DNA from: Naegleria gruberi
Taxonomy: Eukaryota
Assembly (NCBI GenBank): GCA_000004985.1
Contig: GG738885.1
Length of the DNA stretch: 64,000 nucleotides
Reading direction: 5' to 3' (one strand)
This document shows positions 10,278 to 16,805 of the stretch, one piece after another. The position numbers and the translations under genes were made by a program. The notes below the pieces were generated by a model that did not search any database, was not told the origin of the DNA, and was given only the letters and a program-made list of their open reading frames with translations. How positions within the stretch are numbered: position 1 is the stretch's first letter; each line of letters opens with the position of its first letter.

Positions 10278-10721
10278 ACCTTAATAAAAATGATCACTCT
10301 ATCACCCACAACCTGACATTCTCAAAACCAATTTATCGTACCAAATTATACTCCAACTTCCTCTTCAAAACCAACACTCTAACTATGTTTTTATTATTTC
10401 CTTCGAATATTTGGTTTTCATCCGTTCCCATAAATGGATCGGGTTGTTATCGCTTGCGATACATCTAAAAAAATACGCGCTTATTGTCCACCTCAGAAGA
10501 CAACACATGGTGATGGACGAATGTAAAGTCGAGGTGATTTTAATGTGTACGACAAGTGGTGAAGGAGACTTTTCGACCATGATTGGATCTTACGCATCAA
10601 AGAGTTGAAATTTCCCTCATCTCTCTTGTTGCTATGATCCTCAATATAAATAGAGGGAAGAAAATCTCCATCAATACAATACAACAATAAGAAAAAAACA
10701 AAACAACACAACAACTTGATA

Positions 10722-13700
10722 ATGACTCAAGGAACATCTGATCAACAAACATGTCCAGTATCAGGCATGAGCACTCAAAATAATGAAGCTCAATGTCCAT
10801 TTGCTTCTGCTGATTCTCGTCGTAATAGTAAAGGAAGCAATGGCAGTAATCAACCATGTAAAGAAGAACCAATTCCTCAACCAGAACCACACTTTCTCGT
10901 TGGTAATATCTTTACAGTCGATAAAAAGAATCCATTTCCAAGTTTTATTGAATTGGCCAAAAAGTTCGATGGTATTTTCAAGATGAATATATTAGGTAAA
11001 CAATTAGTAGTAGTTTACAGTCAAGAATTGGTCAATGAATTATGTGATGAGAGCAGATTTGAAAAGGCACTTCCTCCAGGATTAAAACACGTTAAAGAGT
11101 TTGGTGGGGATGGTTTATTCACTGCAGAGAATAATGAACCAAATTGGGCTATTGCTCACAGAATTTTAATGCCAGCCTTTGGTCCAAAATCAATTCAGGA
11201 TATGTATCCTCAAATGTATGATATTGCAGAACAATTGTGTACCAAATGGGAAAGATTGGGAGAGCACTCAGTTATTGACATTGTTGATAACATGACCAGA
11301 TTGACCTTAGATACAATTGCCTTGTGTGCATTCAACTATAGATTTAACAGTTTCTATCATAATGAAATGCATCCATTCGTACAGTCCATGTTCGAGGCAT
11401 TGCAAGAAGCCAGCTCTAGAACTAAGAGACCTTCCATTTTGAACAATGTCTTGGTCAAGACAAAGAAAAAGCATCAAAGAAATATTGAATATATGCATGC
11501 AGTTGCAGACGAGATTGTAAAGGACAGAAAGAAGAATCCAAGTGATGTTAACGATTTGCTTAATAGAATGTTACTTGGAAAGGATCCAGTCACCAATCAA
11601 GGATTAAGTGATGAAAATATTAGATATCAAATGGTCACGTTTTTGATAGCCGGGCACGAGACGACTAGTGGTCTTTTGAGTTTCACGCTTTATGAACTTC
11701 TCAAACATCCAGAAGTTTTAAAGAAAGCTCAAAAAGAAGTTGACACTGTGATTGGAAATGAAAATATTCAAATCAAACATATTCCACAACTTGTCTATTT
11801 GGATCAAATCCTCAAAGAAACTCTTCGTCTGTGGCCAACTGCTCCTGGATTTGGTCTTGGTTGTAAAACTGATCAAGTCATTGGTGGAAAGTATAGAATT
11901 CACCCTTCAGATTTTATTATTGTGAGTAATTCCAATTTGCACAGAGATAAGAAAGTTTGGGGTGAAGATTGTGAACAATTCAATCCTGATAGAATGAGCC
12001 CAGAAAACTTTTCCTCACTTCCAAGTAACAGTTGGAAACCTTTTGGTAATGGATCGAGAGGTTGCATTGGCCGTCCATTTGCTTGGCAAGAAGCAATTTT
12101 GGTATTGGCTATGGTTCTTCAAAGATTTGAACTGATTGAGAATGATCCAAATTATCACTTGTCCATTACCCAAGCTTTGACCATCAAGCCAAATGGATTA
12201 TTCCTCAAAGTTAAGCCAAGATCTAATTGGAAAGGATCTCAATTGGTGAGAACTAATGCTTCTAATACTAGTTCTGAAAATTCTCATACTGATGATCAAA
12301 ATTCCACATCTACCGAATCAAAGGGTCCACTTTTGGTCTTGTACGGTTCTAACAGTGGTACATGTGAAAGCTTTGCCTCAATGTTGCACCAAGATGCTAA
12401 ATCCAAAGGATTTGATTGTAAAGTTGGTAGATTGAACACATTTACTGGTAACATTCCATTGGATACTCCAATTCTCATTGTAACAGCTTCATATGAAGGT
12501 CAACCAACTGAAGATGCCAAACAATTCGTTGGATGGCTCGAACATGTTCCAGAAAATACTCTCAAAGGACTCAAATATGCAGTTTTCGGATGTGGACACA
12601 GTGATTGGGTTGACACCTATCAAAGAATTCCAACATTCATTGACAACAAATTGAGTGAAGCTGGTGGTGAGAGAATTGCCCAGAGAGGAATTGGTAATGC
12701 TGCCAAAGACTTATTCTGTGAATTTGATCAGTGGAGAAAGACATTGTGGAGTTCTTTCGATCCTCATACCTCTCACGAACTTCCTCCAGTTGAAACAACC
12801 ATCATTAAGGGACATAGAGAAACAATTCTCCATTTCCAAAGTTTGGAACCTGGAAAGGTAATTGAAAATTATGATTTGGTTCCTGAGGACTATTGTGATG
12901 ATCATGGAACTTGTAGATCCAAGAGACATATTGAAATTCAATTGCCAGCTGGAGCTCATTATGAATCAGGTGATTATTTATCAGTATTACCTGTCAACTC
13001 TATGAAAGTTGTTAATAAGGCACTTTCTCATTTCAAATTAACTCACGATGATCAAATTGTCTTGAAGAGAAGTGAAACAATTTCATCTTCATCCTATCCT
13101 GTCAATGAGCCAATCTCTGCAGTCAACTTGTTCATGAATTATTTCGAATTGAGTCAACCAGCAACCAAGAGACAATTAGAAATTCTCCTCGAACACACAA
13201 AGGAAGCATCCGATAAGCAAGTACTCCAACAATTAATAGAAAAGGACTCTAACATTCCTCCAATTCTTGATATCGTTCATGATTTGAAATCTTGTACAAT
13301 TCCACTCGGAAATTTCTTGGATATTTCAATTCCTATGCGTACAAGACAATACTCAATCTCATCCTCTCCATTGTGGAATAAGGACAAGTGTACCATTACT
13401 GTTGGTGTATTGAGAGCTCCAGCAACCCATGGAAAAGGATTCCACGAAGGGGTTGCCTCCAATTTCTTGGCAAGTTGTCTTCCAGATATGCAAGTTTCGG
13501 TTCAAATTAGAAACTCTTCCTTCAAATTACCTAATGACCCATCTGTTCCAATTATCATGATTGGAGCTGGTACTGGTATTGCTCCATTCAGAGGTTTCGT
13601 TCAGGAAAGAGCTTGTCTCATTAAGGAAGGTAAGACTCTTGGTAAGGCTCTCTTGTTCCAAGGATGCAGAAATCCAGAACAAGATTACTTGTACAAGAAG

Positions 13701-13994
13701 GAACTCGAAGAATGGAGTCAATTGGGAGCTGTTGAATTGAGACCAGTTTTCTCAAGAATGGGAAGTAACGTAAAATATGTTCAAGATAAGATTATGGAAT
13801 GCAAGGAAGAAGTTGCTAAACTCTTACTGGAAGAAGCTCAAATCTACATTTGTGGTGAAGGAAATCATATGGCACCTGCTGTTAAGAAAGTCTTGATGGA
13901 AATTTATCAACAAGTTACCAATTGTACAAAGGAAGAAGCTGAAAAGAGAATGAGCTCGATGGATAAGCGTTTTGCTGTTGATGTTTTTGCATAA
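10722..13994 (+). CDS. Self-sufficient cytochrome P450-NADPH-P450 reductase fusion (CYP102A1/P450BM3-like; fungal CYP505-type fatty-acid hydroxylase)
   Basis: The N-terminal heme domain is collinear with P450BM3 (ELCDESRFEKAL, FGGDGLFTAE, I-helix AGHETTSG, EXXR at ETLRLWP, heme loop FGNGSRGCIGRPFAWQE). It is followed by a flavodoxin-like FMN domain (LLVLYGSNSGTCESFA) and an FAD/NADPH domain (RQYSISSSP, GAGTGIAPFRGF). The first ATG is at 10722; the ORF-track start at 10716 is TTG. Confidence 0.9.
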   Translation: MTQGTSDQQTCPVSGMSTQNNEAQCPFASADSRRNSKGSNGSNQPCKEEPIPQPEPHFLVGNIFTVDKKNPFPSFIELAKKFDGIFKMNILGKQLVVVYSQELVNELCDESRFEKALPPGLKHVKEFGGDGLFTAENNEPNWAIAHRILMPAFGPKSIQDMYPQMYDIAEQLCTKWERLGEHSVIDIVDNMTRLTLDTIALCAFNYRFNSFYHNEMHPFVQSMFEALQEASSRTKRPSILNNVLVKTKKKHQRNIEYMHAVADEIVKDRKKNPSDVNDLLNRMLLGKDPVTNQGLSDENIRYQMVTFLIAGHETTSGLLSFTLYELLKHPEVLKKAQKEVDTVIGNENIQIKHIPQLVYLDQILKETLRLWPTAPGFGLGCKTDQVIGGKYRIHPSDFIIVSNSNLHRDKKVWGEDCEQFNPDRMSPENFSSLPSNSWKPFGNGSRGCIGRPFAWQEAILVLAMVLQRFELIENDPNYHLSITQALTIKPNGLFLKVKPRSNWKGSQLVRTNASNTSSENSHTDDQNSTSTESKGPLLVLYGSNSGTCESFASMLHQDAKSKGFDCKVGRLNTFTGNIPLDTPILIVTASYEGQPTEDAKQFVGWLEHVPENTLKGLKYAVFGCGHSDWVDTYQRIPTFIDNKLSEAGGERIAQRGIGNAAKDLFCEFDQWRKTLWSSFDPHTSHELPPVETTIIKGHRETILHFQSLEPGKVIENYDLVPEDYCDDHGTCRSKRHIEIQLPAGAHYESGDYLSVLPVNSMKVVNKALSHFKLTHDDQIVLKRSETISSSSYPVNEPISAVNLFMNYFELSQPATKRQLEILLEHTKEASDKQVLQQLIEKDSNIPPILDIVHDLKSCTIPLGNFLDISIPMRTRQYSISSSPLWNKDKCTITVGVLRAPATHGKGFHEGVASNFLASCLPDMQVSVQIRNSSFKLPNDPSVPIIMIGAGTGIAPFRGFVQERACLIKEGKTLGKALLFQGCRNPEQDYLYKKELEEWSQLGAVELRPVFSRMGSNVKYVQDKIMECKEEVAKLLLEEAQIYICGEGNHMAPAVKKVLMEIYQQVTNCTKEEAEKRMSSMDKRFAVDVFA

Positions 13995-14183
13995 TAAATT
14001 TGTAATTTAATATTTAATTTCTCAATCCTATTGTGCAATTTTACCTATTGCAGCTGTCCTCAATTCCAGAGAAAGGAAGATGGCGAATATGATTTTTTTT
14101 CAGTTGGAATATTGAGAGTCAATTTGTAATTTATTTTGTTGTTTACAAGAATATTAACCCTATTGGAAATCTCGATCATTAAT

Positions 14184-15143
14184 TTACAAGGATGGCTTTT
14201 CTGACTTTTTGCATGTCTTTCTCTTGATACAAATCTTCTTCTTGATTGACTTGCAACACTTCTTCTTTCCACCAACCAATTTGAATTTCTTACAAATCTT
14301 CTTTCCCTTAGAACGTTTCAAACACTTCTTATAATACTTCTTCTTGAGACATCTTGGTGGAATGACAATTGATTTGGCACAATATTTCTTCTTTTGATAT
14401 TTGACACATTTAGAAAGAGTCTTCTTGTGCTTACAGAACTTGATAGTCTTATGCTTGGCACAGAAGAATTTCTTCTTAATGAGACAACATTTCTTGATGG
14501 ATTTTCTCTCCTTACAGTATTTAACCTTCTTATACTTGGCACATTTCTTTGCCCATGCAACAATCTTGCACTTTTTAACATATCTACATTTGGCAACCTT
14601 CTTCTTATAGGAATCAACAGTGTACTTATCGCAAATCTTCTTCTTTTCACACTTCTTGATTGGAACCTTCTTGAATTTCTTACAGACCTTCTTATATCCC
14701 TTCTTGACGCACTTGTTGACAATCTTGTGTTTGGCACAGAATTTCTTGTAACCCTTCTTCACACAAATCTTCTTAGTTCCATAAGAATCACAAACTTTCC
14801 AGTGCTTCTTCTTGGCACAACCAACAATCTTGTACGCATGCAAGACACATTTCTTTGTTGGCTTGCTATACTTGTCACATTTGGAATATTTCTTATGTTT
14901 GAGACATTTACCAGCACCGACAATGGCATATTGATCACAGACCTTCTTTTGACCAACGAGTTTGTGTTTCAAACACTTCTTAATCCACTTGTGCTTTAAA
15001 CATTTTCTCTTACTAATCTTTGGCTTGTGATACTTGTCAACTACGACTGGTCCAGGTTTGGTTTGATAGCTGTCAGTTGCTTGAACTGAAAGAATGGCAA
15101 GCAGGAGAAGAATTGCAATTGAAACAATTAGATTTGCTTTCAT
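14184..15143 (-). CDS. Secreted, extremely basic Lys/Cys-rich repeat protein (novel; function unknown)
   Basis: The N-terminal signal peptide is MKANLIVSIAILLLLAILSVQA. The mature part of about 295 aa is roughly one-third Lys with about 36 Cys, spaced every 7-12 residues in reiterated C-x-K-H-K / CxKKxYKKxC units. The same DNA yields long spurious ORFs in other frames (14394..14999 +, 14318..14737 -) because of the AAG/AAA-rich repeats. Confidence 0.6.
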   Translation of the reverse strand: MKANLIVSIAILLLLAILSVQATDSYQTKPGPVVVDKYHKPKISKRKCLKHKWIKKCLKHKLVGQKKVCDQYAIVGAGKCLKHKKYSKCDKYSKPTKKCVLHAYKIVGCAKKKHWKVCDSYGTKKICVKKGYKKFCAKHKIVNKCVKKGYKKVCKKFKKVPIKKCEKKKICDKYTVDSYKKKVAKCRYVKKCKIVAWAKKCAKYKKVKYCKERKSIKKCCLIKKKFFCAKHKTIKFCKHKKTLSKCVKYQKKKYCAKSIVIPPRCLKKKYYKKCLKRSKGKKICKKFKLVGGKKKCCKSIKKKICIKRKTCKKSEKPSL

Positions 15144-15416: not shown

Positions 15417-16805
15417 CTATTGGAGATTACATTTTTGCTTTGTTCGTACTTTGGGTGATCCTATTGCCTTTTTACAATAAAAGTTTTGAACTAATTCCCT
15501 AACTTTTTGTTTAAGATTCGAATCGAAATCTGGTGCATCACTAATTACTAGTTCAGAAATACTTCCATACTGCTGAACATAATCTATGAATGCATGTAAT
15601 TGCTGCATTACTGAACCTATTATTATGAATGATTAGAGATTGAAGTAATTTTGGTTTGGATTTCAGATACTTAATTATTCCTGAATCAGTATTACCACAA
15701 TTAATAACTGTTAATCTAGTAATGGATCATTCCGTATTCCCAAATAACTCAAATCCATCATCTCCAATGTTTTGGTTTGAAGAAATAACCAATTCTCTCA
15801 AATGTTTCATATTTGCAATGATTTTACATGATTTAAACGAAATGGCATTGTTGCTCAAATTTAGATAATGCATTTTCTTAAATTCATTCCTACTCAAAAA
15901 TTCCATAACTGTGCTATCCTCAATATTATTGAATCCAACATGTAAATATTCCAAACTATAACAATGACACAACTAGGTCAACCCATTTCCAATTTTGTTA
16001 TCATGTAAATTGAAATGTTTCAATAATTTCAAATTTCCAAAATTTTTCAAACCTTCGCTACCTATCATATTCATTTCCAAATGTAATTCTTCCAGTTTAA
16101 CATTTTCTGATAAATAATTGGCTCCAACATCTCCTATTTGATTTTTTCTCACATCCAATTGTTTGAGTTGAATAGTTTAGTTCAGTGTGATTCCAATTTA
16201 TAAAGATGTTCCAATGCTGATTTTTTCAAATCAATCAAATAAATACACTTTCAACTTTTTAGCAAATTTGCTTTCGAATATTGAAATTAATGATTTTGAA
16301 TGCAAGTGACCGAATAATATTAATTTCTCCAATGGCCAATCCAATTTATCAAAAAGTAAATTTTCATCTCCCGAATTTGTCATTATTTTCATGGAGAGTG
16401 ATTTAATTTTTGACTTGCTTTCGAATAGTAAATTAATACTTTTAATACTCAATCCAGGTAATTCCATTTCTTGTAATGTTTTCAATTTTTCAATTTCAAT
16501 AATTAAATCATCACTACAGCTACTTTTCAATTTCAATACTTTCAAATTGGTTAACATGGAAATAAACGAATCTAAACTTATTCTCGTTTTGAAATTTAAA
16601 TGTGTTACCTTGCTCAATTTATCAGAATATTCAATTCGTGGGAATTTCTTGGCAGCAGCGGAAAGTAAAAAGTTTTTATGGATTTGTAATTTTCATTCCA
16701 ATATTTACAAACTAATCTGACATTGTTTAAAATCCATCGATATTCGAAATAGATGAAAATTTGATCAAAAATTATTTCGTGCGAAAGCAGAGAATGTACT
16801 TGCAT
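15417..16805 (-). pseudogene. F-box-like / RNI-type leucine-rich-repeat gene, fragmented (in-frame TAG and frame changes); pseudogene or multi-intron gene
   Basis: Five minus-strand ORF pieces carry an F-box-like N-terminus (EIIFDQIFIYFEYRWILNNVRLVCKYW) and RNI-type LRRs (NQIGDVGANYLSENVKLEELHLEMNMIGSEGLKNF; NLSNNAISFKSCKIIANMKHLRELVISSNQNIGDDG). ORFs 15973..16158 and 15727..15972 are contiguous in the same frame, separated only by a TAG at 15973..15975. Confidence 0.4.

What the first reader, a model, noticed from the sequence alone, without database searches (positions are those of the whole stretch)
14184..15143. Secreted, hyper-basic Lys/Cys repeat protein with no recognisable family
A 319-aa ORF has a clean signal peptide (MKANLIVSIAILLLLAILSVQA). 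Its mature region is about one-third lysine and carries about 36 cysteines at 7-12-residue spacing, in reiterated units such as KC-LKHK-x-KKC and C-x-KKGYKK-x-C. The even Cys count and regular spacing suggest a disulfide-laddered, highly cationic secreted molecule. That could be an antimicrobial or defensin-like protein, a cell-wall or nucleic-acid binding protein, or a host-targeted effector. I know no described family with this architecture. The gene is convergent with the P450-CPR fusion, with about 190 bp between their stops.
Basis: seen in the sequence. Interest (0 to 1): 0.65.

Follow-up and report, generated by a model that had tools for sequence, protein, structure and literature searches.

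The report
Secreted polycationic cystine-ladder rod protein
A real gene that is missing from the Naegleria gruberi reference protein set encodes a secreted, 36%-lysine protein whose cysteines are placed mirror-symmetrically, as if the chain folds into one very long hairpin pinned by about 14 disulfide rungs. It belongs to an uncharacterised family whose named members all come from Naegleria and Willaertia amoebae, and its function is untested (best guess: a cross-linkable rod of the cyst wall or extracellular matrix).

Summary

New finding: the Cys positions are mirror-symmetric about residues 172-185, giving 14 pairs from 171-186 out to 48-305. Paralogues show matching deletions, Cys losses and insertions at mirrored sites. 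AlphaFold2 independently predicts one giant two-stranded β-hairpin (pLDDT above 90 over most of both arms), about 37-40 nm long if extended. Three Cys are left unpaired, and every Asp sits in a D-x-Y motif.

Function is inferred only. My best guess is a cross-linkable polycationic rod of the cyst wall or matrix (about 0.35); the main rival is a bacteria-binding or antimicrobial protein (about 0.2).

The parts
14184..15143 (-). Complete single-exon CDS (319 codons plus TAA stop at 14184-14186) of the Lys/Cys ladder protein
   Evidence: ORF list and sequence. A full-length paralogue aligns end to end. dN/dS is 0.136 against orthologue L002.
15078..15143 (-). Signal peptide, aa 1-22 (MKANLIVSIAILLLLAILSVQA), with predicted cleavage after VQA
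   Evidence: Read from the sequence. An equivalent hydrophobic N-terminus is present in the full-length paralogues. AF2 models it as helix 2-21. No SignalP-type tool was available.
15003..15077 (-). N-terminal tail, aa 23-47, with two D-x-Y motifs (TDSY, VDKY). Low-confidence, probably flexible.
   Evidence: pLDDT below 50 for residues 22-44. D-x-Y enrichment.
14631..15002 (-). N-arm of the ladder, aa 48-171. It has 14 Cys at 48, 57, 69, 80, 89, 99, 109, 118, 127, 136, 145, 154, 165 and 171.
   Evidence: Cys positions. Mirror pairing with the C-arm. AF2 beta strands E46-59, 69-75, 80-92 and 96-171.
14589..14630 (-). Hairpin tip loop, aa 172-185 (DKYTVDSYKKKVAK), carrying two D-x-Y motifs
   Evidence: Centre of the Cys mirror symmetry. 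The only non-strand stretch between E96-171 and E186-261, with pLDDT below 50 at 175-181.
14229..14588 (-). C-arm of the ladder, aa 186-305. Cys are at 186, 192, 201, 210, 219/220, 228, 237, 246, 255, 265, 274, 284, 296/297 and 305. The two CC doublets each leave one Cys without a mirror partner.
   Evidence: AF2 strands E186-261, 265-277, 281-287 and 298-310 mirror the N-arm strands.
14187..14228 (-). C-terminal tail, aa 306-319, including Cys311. Its mirror partner, a Cys four residues before the first rung, is present in P0001 and P0004-type paralogues but is Ser44 here.
   Evidence: Alignments. Unpaired list.
13995..14183 (.). 189-bp spacer between the convergent stops of the P450-CPR fusion gene and this gene (shared 3' region)

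Best explanation
The explanation has three layers, each with its own confidence.

(1) Gene and family (shown, about 0.95). This is a genuine single-exon gene that is missing from the Naegleria gruberi NEG-M protein set. It encodes a signal-peptide-bearing member of an uncharacterised protein family. All named members of that family come from Naegleria (gruberi, fowleri, lovaniensis) and Willaertia.

(2) Structure (inferred from two independent lines, about 0.65). The mature chain folds back on itself at residues 172-185 into one two-stranded antiparallel beta ribbon. Cys of the N-arm bond to mirror-positioned Cys of the C-arm. The 14 rungs are 171-186, 165-192, 154-201, 145-210, 136-219/220, 127-228, 118-237, 109-246, 99-255, 89-265, 80-274, 69-284, 57-296/297 and 48-305. 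This would give a thin rod of roughly 37-40 nm coated with about 100 net positive charges. Three Cys (one of 219/220, one of 296/297, and 311) stay free for intermolecular bonds. D-x-Y motifs sit at both ends of the rod.

(3) Function (inference only, about 0.35). The rod is exported and acts as a structural, cross-linkable polycation of an extracellular layer, most plausibly the cyst wall or a surface matrix. It would bind acidic or polysaccharide wall material electrostatically and become insoluble through intermolecular disulfides, and possibly through Tyr-based cross-links.
For: Gene and organism:
- Six neighbouring ORFs are exact matches to NEG-M proteins on one 362,555-bp scaffold.
- The ORF product itself has no exact or 100% hit.
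- dN/dS is 0.136, and substitutions are dominated by the third codon position.

Family:
- Hits are P0003 (6e-58), P0004 (4e-23) and others, all labelled 'predicted protein'.
- An exhaustive profile search of 1.84 billion representatives found 21 hits.
- The named ones come from N. gruberi, N. fowleri, N. lovaniensis and Willaertia magna.

Hairpin ladder:
- Mirrored pair sums are 353-357 along the whole chain, and the irregular gaps are mirrored too (6/6, 10/10, 12/12.5). Only 6 of 5000 permutations matched this.
- A mirror alignment allowing skipped Cys finds 14-15 pairs in all 10 members tested. 0/200 permutations reach the observed score in 7 of them, and 6/200 or fewer in the other 3.
- Correlated changes occur at mirrored sites in paralogues. 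P0003 loses residues in both the 57-80 and the 274-297 segments. P0004/P0008/P0009/P0040 lack a Cys on both arms (17 vs 18 gaps). P0010/P0037 have insertions on both arms (15-17 vs 21 residues), each carrying PDPY or PDTY.
- Arm lengths co-vary across members (r = 0.94).
- AF2 with a 12-sequence alignment gives mean pLDDT 74, about 90 or higher for residues ~80-165 and ~195-265. The strands pair as 46-59/298-310, 69-75/281-287, 80-92/265-277 and 96-171/186-261.

Function hints:
- Three Cys have no mirror partner.
- All seven Asp are in D-x-Y, and paralogue tails carry tandem IDSYKP repeats.
- A much less basic member (P0018, net +30) keeps the ladder, so the scaffold rather than the charge is the conserved property.
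- From general knowledge, disulfide-rich repeat proteins are typical of protist cyst, oocyst and spore walls. Basic Lys/Tyr-rich rods such as plant extensins act as cross-linked wall scaffolds.
Against: - No expression, proteomic or localisation data could be found. There was no literature hit for any family locus tag, and nothing in the N. fowleri cyst transcriptome paper.
- The structure is a prediction from only 12 sequences, and pTM is 0.28.
- I could not inspect coordinates or S-S distances.
- A rung spacing of 9 (an odd number) would alternate hydrogen-bonded and non-hydrogen-bonded cross-strand sites. A perfectly regular flat ribbon is therefore unlikely without bulges.
- Mirror symmetry fits an antiparallel disulfide-linked homodimer as well as an intramolecular hairpin.
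- Extreme basicity is not typical of the protist wall proteins I know of (my own knowledge, not checked here).
Confidence: 0.4

Rival explanations
1. Antimicrobial or prey-handling protein. On this reading it is a giant version of the cationic disulfide-stapled beta-hairpin antimicrobial peptides. It would be secreted, or delivered to food vacuoles, to bind, agglutinate or permeabilise the anionic envelopes of the bacteria that Naegleria eats.
For: - Polycationic (net +103, pI 10.1).
- Predicted single antiparallel hairpin closed by intramolecular disulfides. That matches the structural definition of beta-hairpin AMPs in PMC13001179.
- Signal peptide.
- Multi-copy family in bacterivorous amoebae.
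Against: - The mature protein is 297 aa. The members described in the passages read from PMC13001179 are 16-21 residues with 1-4 disulfides.
- There is strong purifying selection (dN/dS 0.14) rather than the fast evolution often seen in immune effectors.
- Family members with low net charge keep the ladder (P0018).
- Unpaired Cys and D-x-Y/IDSYKP motifs point to cross-linking rather than a soluble effector.
- No activity data exist.
Confidence: 0.2
2. Polyanion-condensing or packaging protein of the secretory pathway. The polylysine rod would neutralise and compact an acidic cargo inside secretory vesicles or after release. Candidate cargoes are acidic polysaccharide, polyphosphate and extracellular DNA. 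The role would not be load-bearing.
For: - Extreme and evenly distributed positive charge, with Lys favoured at +/-2 and +4 from each Cys.
- Rigid periodic scaffold.
- Signal peptide.
Against: - No partner is identified.
- Less basic paralogues exist.
- Nothing in the sequence is specific to this idea.
Confidence: 0.1
3. Precursor polyprotein. The ladder would be cut between rungs at its many dibasic sites, releasing about 14 small two-chain, single-disulfide cationic peptides.
For: - KK/KR dibasic sites lie between nearly all rungs.
- Each rung would hold two roughly 9-residue segments together.
Against: - Inter-rung residues and gap lengths are conserved on both arms, and indels are compensated. 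This indicates that the intact ribbon is what is selected.
- Dibasic sites are too dense for specific processing.
- There is no precedent.
Confidence: 0.05
4. Not a functional gene. On this reading it is a chance or antisense ORF in AT-rich, AAG-rich DNA, or a nuclear Lys-rich protein mistaken for a secreted one.
For: - It is absent from the reference annotation.
- The composition is low-complexity.
- A 201-aa ORF lies on the opposite strand.
- The orthologous contig L002 carries one in-frame TGA.
Against: - dN/dS is 0.136, and 30 of 31 Cys are conserved at 77% DNA identity.
- Substitutions are dominated by the third codon position, and the antisense ORF is not conserved.
- At least 7 paralogues exist in N. 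gruberi, with orthologues in three other species.
- There is no linker-histone or other nuclear domain.
- The signal peptide is present in the full-length paralogues.
Confidence: 0.02

Closest known systems
Uncharacterised Naegleria/Willaertia 'predicted proteins': NAEGRDRAFT_67458, 64508, 48501, 64980, 66117, 57793 and 76199 (C-terminal part); N. fowleri FDP41_004030 and FDP41_008345; N. lovaniensis C9374_009239; W. magna ABK040_005866
   Same: True homologues, with E-values from 6e-58 to 4e-23 against single sequences and down to 1e-117 against the profile. They share the signal peptide, the 9-residue Cys period, the mirror-symmetric ladder and the D-x-Y motifs.
   Different: The window protein is the most lysine-rich member (36% K, net +103/+104). 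Among the full-length paralogues compared, the others have 13-26% K and net +30 to +88; only the orthologue L002 comes close (32% K, net +94). With P0003, it has the shortest ladder (14 rungs against 15-17). It is not itself in any protein database. No member has a known function.
Beta-hairpin antimicrobial peptides (protegrins, tachyplesins, arenicins, theta-defensins; review PMC13001179)
   Same: Cationic. A single pair of antiparallel strands closed by concentric, ladder-like intramolecular disulfides, which is predicted here. Made with a signal peptide.
   Different: Those described in the passages read have 16-21 residues and 1-4 disulfides. This protein has 297 residues and about 14 rungs spaced 9 residues apart. 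There is no sequence homology, no clear amphipathic face, and activity is untested. This is a resemblance in principle only.
Cysteine-rich cyst, oocyst and spore wall proteins of protists (Entamoeba Jacob lectins, Giardia CWPs, Cryptosporidium COWPs, Acanthamoeba Leo/Luke/Jonah lectins, Dictyostelium spore-coat and EcmA/B repeat proteins)
   Same: Secreted. Built of reiterated Cys-containing units. Multi-paralogue and lineage-restricted. Thought to be made insoluble by disulfides. The Acanthamoeba examples are documented in PMC6541295 (title and abstract seen); the others I cite from general knowledge.
   Different: No sequence or Pfam relationship. To my knowledge those proteins use compact multi-Cys domains and are not polycationic. 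Nothing is published on Naegleria wall proteins that I could find.
Basic, Lys/Tyr-rich cross-linkable structural proteins: plant extensins, mussel foot proteins, Bacillus subtilis spore-coat CotG (from my own knowledge, not tested)
   Same: High pI. Lys plus Tyr (and for mfp-6 and CotG also Cys) in short reiterated motifs. A rod-like or extended shape. Function by covalent cross-linking and by binding acidic partners. Tails such as IDSYKP x4 in paralogue P0009 recall the Y-K-P motifs of mfp-1.
   Different: No Ser-Hyp4 or mfp decapeptide repeats and no homology. The rod here would be a disulfide-stapled beta ribbon, not a polyproline-II helix or a disordered chain.
Disulfide-braced repetitive beta proteins such as Tenebrio antifreeze protein, and long two-stranded beta stems of pore-forming toxins (lysenin, aerolysin)
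   Same: Strictly periodic Cys in a repetitive beta structure (TmAFP, from my own knowledge). The toxin stems were the only, and insignificant, Foldseek hits, because they too are very long beta hairpins.

Membership tests
Naegleria/Willaertia Lys/Cys ladder family (unnamed, uncharacterised) | Significant full-length sequence homology to the other members | tested here: met
   P0003: 46% identity over 89% of the query, E 6e-58. P0004: E 4e-23. Profile search: 16 hits at E <= 1e-10.
Naegleria/Willaertia Lys/Cys ladder family (unnamed, uncharacterised) | N-terminal signal peptide followed by a 9-residue-period Cys array that is mirror-symmetric about a central loop | tested here: met
   14 mirrored pairs, with 0/200 permutations reaching the observed score.
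Beta-hairpin antimicrobial peptides | Short polypeptide (the described members are 16-21 residues in the passages read) | tested here: not met
   The mature protein is 297 aa. Class definition from PMC13001179.
Beta-hairpin antimicrobial peptides | Cationic | tested here: met
   K+R is 113 against D+E 10; pI 10.1.
Beta-hairpin antimicrobial peptides | Single pair of antiparallel strands cyclised by intramolecular disulfides | tested here: inconclusive
   Predicted by AF2 and consistent with the Cys mirror symmetry. There is no experimental disulfide map, and an antiparallel dimer is not excluded.
Beta-hairpin antimicrobial peptides | Experimentally shown antimicrobial activity | not testable with these tools
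   Requires recombinant protein and killing or binding assays.
Any Pfam family, including linker histone and known Cys-rich wall or lectin domains | Match to the family HMM | tested here: not met
   0 families at E <= 10 for the window protein. Nothing near the gathering cut-off at E <= 1 for eight paralogues.
Proteins of known three-dimensional structure | Sequence, profile or fold similarity to a PDB entry | tested here: not met
Plant extensins | Ser-Pro3-5 (Ser-Hyp) repeats with Y-x-Y cross-link motifs | tested here: not met
   No SPPP and no YxY motif in the sequence. Only 8 Pro in total.
Cyst-wall structural proteins (functional class) | Presence in purified cyst walls, or induction during encystment | not testable with these tools
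   No Naegleria wall proteome or usable expression table could be found.

The most novel reading that the evidence does not exclude
The family embodies a protein architecture that has not been described. It would be a single two-stranded beta hairpin about 37-40 nm long, stapled by 14-17 mirror-paired disulfides and carrying up to about 100 net positive charges. Vahlkampfiid amoebae would use this covalently braced 'nanorod' as a cross-linkable building block of the cyst wall or surface matrix, through spare cysteines and terminal D-x-Y motifs. That would make it both a new fold class and the first molecular component known for the Naegleria wall.
Probability: 0.3. Interest if true: 0.8.

Novelty: new variant of a known kind. 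Interest (0 to 1): 0.6.

Why it matters
- If the mirror-paired ladder is real, it is the longest cystine-ladder hairpin that I know of. It would be a natural, genetically encoded, rigid polycationic rod, of interest to structural biology and biomaterials.
- No family member has a described function in anything I could find, and I found no study of Naegleria cyst-wall proteins. Cysts underlie the environmental persistence and disinfectant resistance of N. fowleri, which has two orthologues. A wall role would therefore give a first molecular handle and a lineage-specific marker or target.
- It exposes an annotation gap. The gene's product is missing from the NEG-M reference proteome, and its near-identical copy is fused to an unrelated SAM-PB1 model.
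- If the protein is antimicrobial instead, it would greatly extend the size range of beta-hairpin antimicrobial proteins.

Tried and rejected
- Pfam on the window protein and on eight paralogues gave nothing usable.
- PDB sequence and profile searches gave nothing.
- The first AF2 run, with 5 sequences, was too poor to use (pLDDT 43.8). Only the 12-sequence run was informative.
- Tandem Repeats Finder found no DNA-level repeat array, only a 12-bp unit in 2.4 copies. The 9-aa period is therefore old and maintained at the protein level, not recent slippage.
- There is no second copy in the window.
- The bacterial promoter/terminator scan is irrelevant for a eukaryote and was at background.
- Literature searches were empty. 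I searched all family locus tags and Naegleria cyst-wall proteins. The 1967 Werth & Kahn cyst-wall analysis is not held.
- The N. fowleri cyst/trophozoite RNA-seq paper has no usable table.
- Exact-sequence contig look-ups for the ORF, P0001, P0002, P0003 and the neighbouring gene were not on record. I therefore could not see the reference gene calls or the DNA of the 95% copy.
- The N-terminal 4-Cys-repeat domain of the long paralogues gave no homologues and no PDB hit.
- Rejected readings: antisense artefact, chance ORF, nuclear Lys-rich protein (see rivals), and fungal origin.
Full report
**1. The observation**

The minus strand of 14184-15143 carries an uninterrupted ATG-to-TAA ORF of 319 codons. 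The N-terminus is MKANLIVSIAILLLLAILSVQA. It has the n/h/c layout of a signal peptide, with V-Q-A at -3/-1. I judged this by eye because no SignalP-type tool was available.

The 297-residue mature part contains 107 Lys (36%), 31 Cys, 18 Tyr, 6 Arg and only 10 acidic residues. The net charge is about +103, the pI is 10.1 and the mass is 34.9 kDa.

There are 31 Cys. The convergent arrangement with the P450-CPR fusion is also correct: the spacer is 189 bp, and the fusion carries p450, flavodoxin, FAD-binding and NAD-binding domains.

The Cys spacing is far from random.
- 14 of 30 gaps are exactly 9 residues.
- The lag-9 autocorrelation is 16, against 3.07 +/- 1.58 in shuffles (0/5000).
- Harmonics appear at lags 18 and 27.
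- Lys is preferred at -2, +2 and +4 from each Cys, which is an alternating, strand-like pattern.
- There is no DNA-level tandem repeat, so the periodicity is maintained at the protein level.

**2. It is a real gene in Naegleria gruberi, missing from the reference proteome**

Six other ORFs of the window are exact matches to N. gruberi NEG-M proteins on one 362,555-bp scaffold. They include EFC41451 (rhoGEF) and EFC41453 (enoyl-CoA hydratase), which flank the locus.

The Lys/Cys product itself has no exact entry and no 100% hit. Its best N. gruberi match is the C-terminal 137 residues of NAEGRDRAFT_76199, at 95% identity. That model is 443 aa, lies on a 39.8-kb scaffold, and has an N-terminal SAM + PB1 part. 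The SAM + PB1 part is not encoded anywhere in the window. The model is evidently chimeric.

An orthologous 1.3-kb contig (L002, 77% DNA identity) allowed a selection test.
- dN is 0.144, dS is 1.06 and dN/dS is 0.136. Because dS is near saturation, the ratio is approximate.
- Substitutions at codon positions 1/2/3 are 48/36/114.
- 30 of 31 Cys are conserved.
- The 201-aa ORF on the opposite strand is not preserved in L002. It is a by-product of the AAG-rich coding strand.

Codon usage differs from the neighbours. AAG makes up 73% of Lys codons here, against 32-58% in nine neighbouring genes. GC3 is 0.47, against 0.24-0.36. This fits either avoidance of poly(A) runs or translational selection; that is inference.

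**3. Family and distribution**

Word-indexed and exhaustive HMM searches recover about 20 relatives in total. The exhaustive search read 1.84 billion representatives. Every named relative is from Naegleria gruberi (at least seven loci), N. fowleri (two), N. lovaniensis or Willaertia magna. All are annotated as predicted or hypothetical. The remaining hits are unnamed metagenome fragments of the same type, plus one spurious repeat match (P0025).

No member hits Pfam. The family profile hits nothing in the PDB. No paper mentions any of the locus tags.

Basicity varies widely, from net +30 in P0018 to +104 here, while the Cys array is kept.

**4.

With a 12-sequence alignment, AlphaFold2 gave mean pLDDT 74.1, about 90 or higher for residues ~80-165 and ~195-265. 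The 5-sequence run had given only 43.8.

The secondary structure is almost all strand, arranged as mirrored segments: 46-59/298-310, 69-75/281-287, 80-92/265-277 and 96-171/186-261. The break is at 172-185. In other words, the model is one giant two-stranded hairpin.

I tested this idea without using the model. Pairing Cys outward from the 171|186 gap gives sums i+j of 357, 357, 355, 355, 355.5, 355, 355, 355, 354, 354, 354, 353, 353.5 and 353. The irregular gaps are mirrored as well (6/6, 10/10, 12/12.5). Only 6 of 5000 permutations of the gap order do as well.

A mirror alignment that allows skipped Cys finds 14-15 pairs in all ten family members tested. 0/200 permutations reach the observed score in seven members, and 6/200 or fewer in the other three.

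Paralogues also show independent, compensated changes at mirrored sites.
- P0003 has shortened both the 57-80 and the 274-297 inter-rung segments to 9+9 residues. The two 3-residue deletions are visible, and the gaps.
- P0004, P0008, P0009 and P0040 lack one Cys on each arm at mirrored positions (gaps of 17 vs 18).
- P0010 and P0037 carry insertions on both arms at mirrored positions (15-17 vs 21 residues). Each insertion contains PDPY or PDTY.
- The window protein and P0003 have 14 rungs per arm, while P0004-type proteins have two more on both arms.
- Arm lengths correlate across members (r = 0.94).

A mirrored spacing cannot arise from DNA duplication. It must be selected by antiparallel pairing of the two halves.

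The simplest reading is an intramolecular hairpin ladder of 14 disulfides. With about 123 residues per arm, it would be about 37-40 nm long if extended.

Caveats:
- I could not inspect coordinates.
- pTM is low (0.28), as expected for a rod.
- A 9-residue (odd) rung spacing implies bulges or irregularities.
- An antiparallel homodimer would satisfy the same symmetry.

**5. Further anatomy**

Three Cys have no mirror partner: one of 219/220, one of 296/297, and 311. The partner of Cys311, a Cys four residues before the first rung, is present in P0001 and in P0004-type paralogues. Here it is Ser44. The orthologue L002 has 30 Cys; the second CC doublet is CF there.

All seven Asp of the mature protein lie in D-x-Y. 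Two are in the N-terminal tail, two at the hairpin tip, and three immediately follow a rung Cys. The motif is enriched in nine of the ten members tested: 0/5000 shuffles reach the observed count in seven, and 9/5000 or fewer in two more. Several paralogues end in tandem I-D-S/T-Y-K-P repeats. The motifs therefore mark the ends and bulges of the rod.

**6. Mechanism: what is shown and what is inferred**

- Shown: coding potential, purifying selection, family membership, taxonomic restriction among the named hits, Cys periodicity and mirror symmetry, and correlated indels.
- Predicted: signal-peptide cleavage and export, and the hairpin-ladder rod.
- Inferred from analogy: function.

I favour an extracellular structural role, at about 0.35. 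A rigid polycationic rod with three spare thiols and Tyr-containing end motifs would bind anionic or polysaccharide wall material and be locked in by intermolecular disulfides, and perhaps by Tyr cross-links. Its most plausible location is the cyst wall.

Two precedents, both from general knowledge, support this. Disulfide-rich repeat proteins are found in protist cyst, oocyst and spore walls. Basic Lys/Tyr-rich rods or coats such as extensins, mussel foot proteins and B. subtilis CotG act as cross-linked scaffolds.

The main rival, at about 0.2, is a bacteria-binding or antimicrobial role. The protein would then be a more than ten-fold enlarged analogue of beta-hairpin AMPs (definition in PMC13001179). 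Several points count against this: the size, the strong sequence conservation, the persistence of the ladder in weakly charged paralogues, and the cross-linking features.

Polyanion packaging and a polyprotein precursor are minor alternatives. An artefact is excluded.

**7. Comparison with known families, and novelty**

The protein is a member only of its own unnamed Naegleria/Willaertia family. It fails the tests for any Pfam family, any PDB fold, extensins and, by size, beta-hairpin AMPs.

It resembles beta-hairpin AMPs in topology and charge. It resembles wall proteins in being secreted, repetitive and Cys-rich.

I rate it a new variant of a known broad kind (secreted disulfide-stapled repeat or hairpin proteins). 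There is a substantial chance (about 0.3) that it represents a new architecture and the first Naegleria wall component.

Interest is 0.6. The mirror-paired ladder is surprising and directly testable. Function and expression are unknown.

Noticed in passing
window 14184-15143 (protein aa 24, 36, 70, 90, 119, 172, 177); paralogues P0009, P0022, P0024, P0010, P0037: Every Asp of the mature protein is followed two residues later by Tyr ([C/V/T]-D-x-Y). The motif is enriched in nine of ten family members tested, and it forms tandem I-D-S/T-Y-K-P repeats in paralogue tails. It may be a Tyr modification or cross-link motif; its meaning is unknown.
   Followed up: partly
window 14184-15143 versus NCBI model NAEGRDRAFT_76199 (EFC36128, 39.8-kb scaffold): The gene's product is absent from the NEG-M reference proteome. 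A 95%-identical copy of its C-terminal 137 residues is fused in a chimeric model to an unrelated SAM + PB1 N-terminus that is not encoded in this window. Whether that copy is an allele or a paralogue is undetermined.
   Followed up: partly
window 15417-16617, minus strand: A leucine-rich-repeat gene (Pfam LRR_6/LRR_4/LRR_8) lies just upstream of the Lys/Cys gene. It is split into several ORFs. Two same-frame pieces are separated by a single stop at 15973-15975, which suggests an intron or a pseudogene. Only one protein accession (EFC41452) seems to lie between the flanking annotated genes, so this gene or the P450 fusion may also lack a model.
   Followed up: partly
window 10716-13994, plus strand: A self-sufficient P450-CPR fusion (p450 + flavodoxin + FAD-binding + NAD-binding domains, CYP102/CYP505-like architecture) in a heterolobosean amoeba.
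   Followed up: partly
P0028 (NAEGRDRAFT_57793), P0027 (L003 10001-12223), P0017 (L004 3836-5977): Long paralogues (about 710-740 aa) carry an extra ~380-residue N-terminal region in front of a weakly basic ladder domain. That region is built of ~38-residue four-Cys repeats (C-P-x6-9-C-x3-G-...-C-x4-C). It has no Pfam hit, and no PDB or homology hit for the P0028 copy.
   Followed up: partly
L002 (Logan SRR32051688), codon aligned to window Gly108: The orthologous contig has one in-frame TGA (AAT TGA TGT) in an otherwise fully conserved ORF. This could be a sequencing or assembly error, or a recent pseudogenisation in that strain.
   Followed up: no
window 14184-15143: Lys codon use is 73% AAG, against 32-58% in nine neighbouring genes. 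GC3 is 0.47, against 0.24-0.36. This may reflect avoidance of poly(A) tracts in a KK/KKK-rich message, or high expression.
   Followed up: partly
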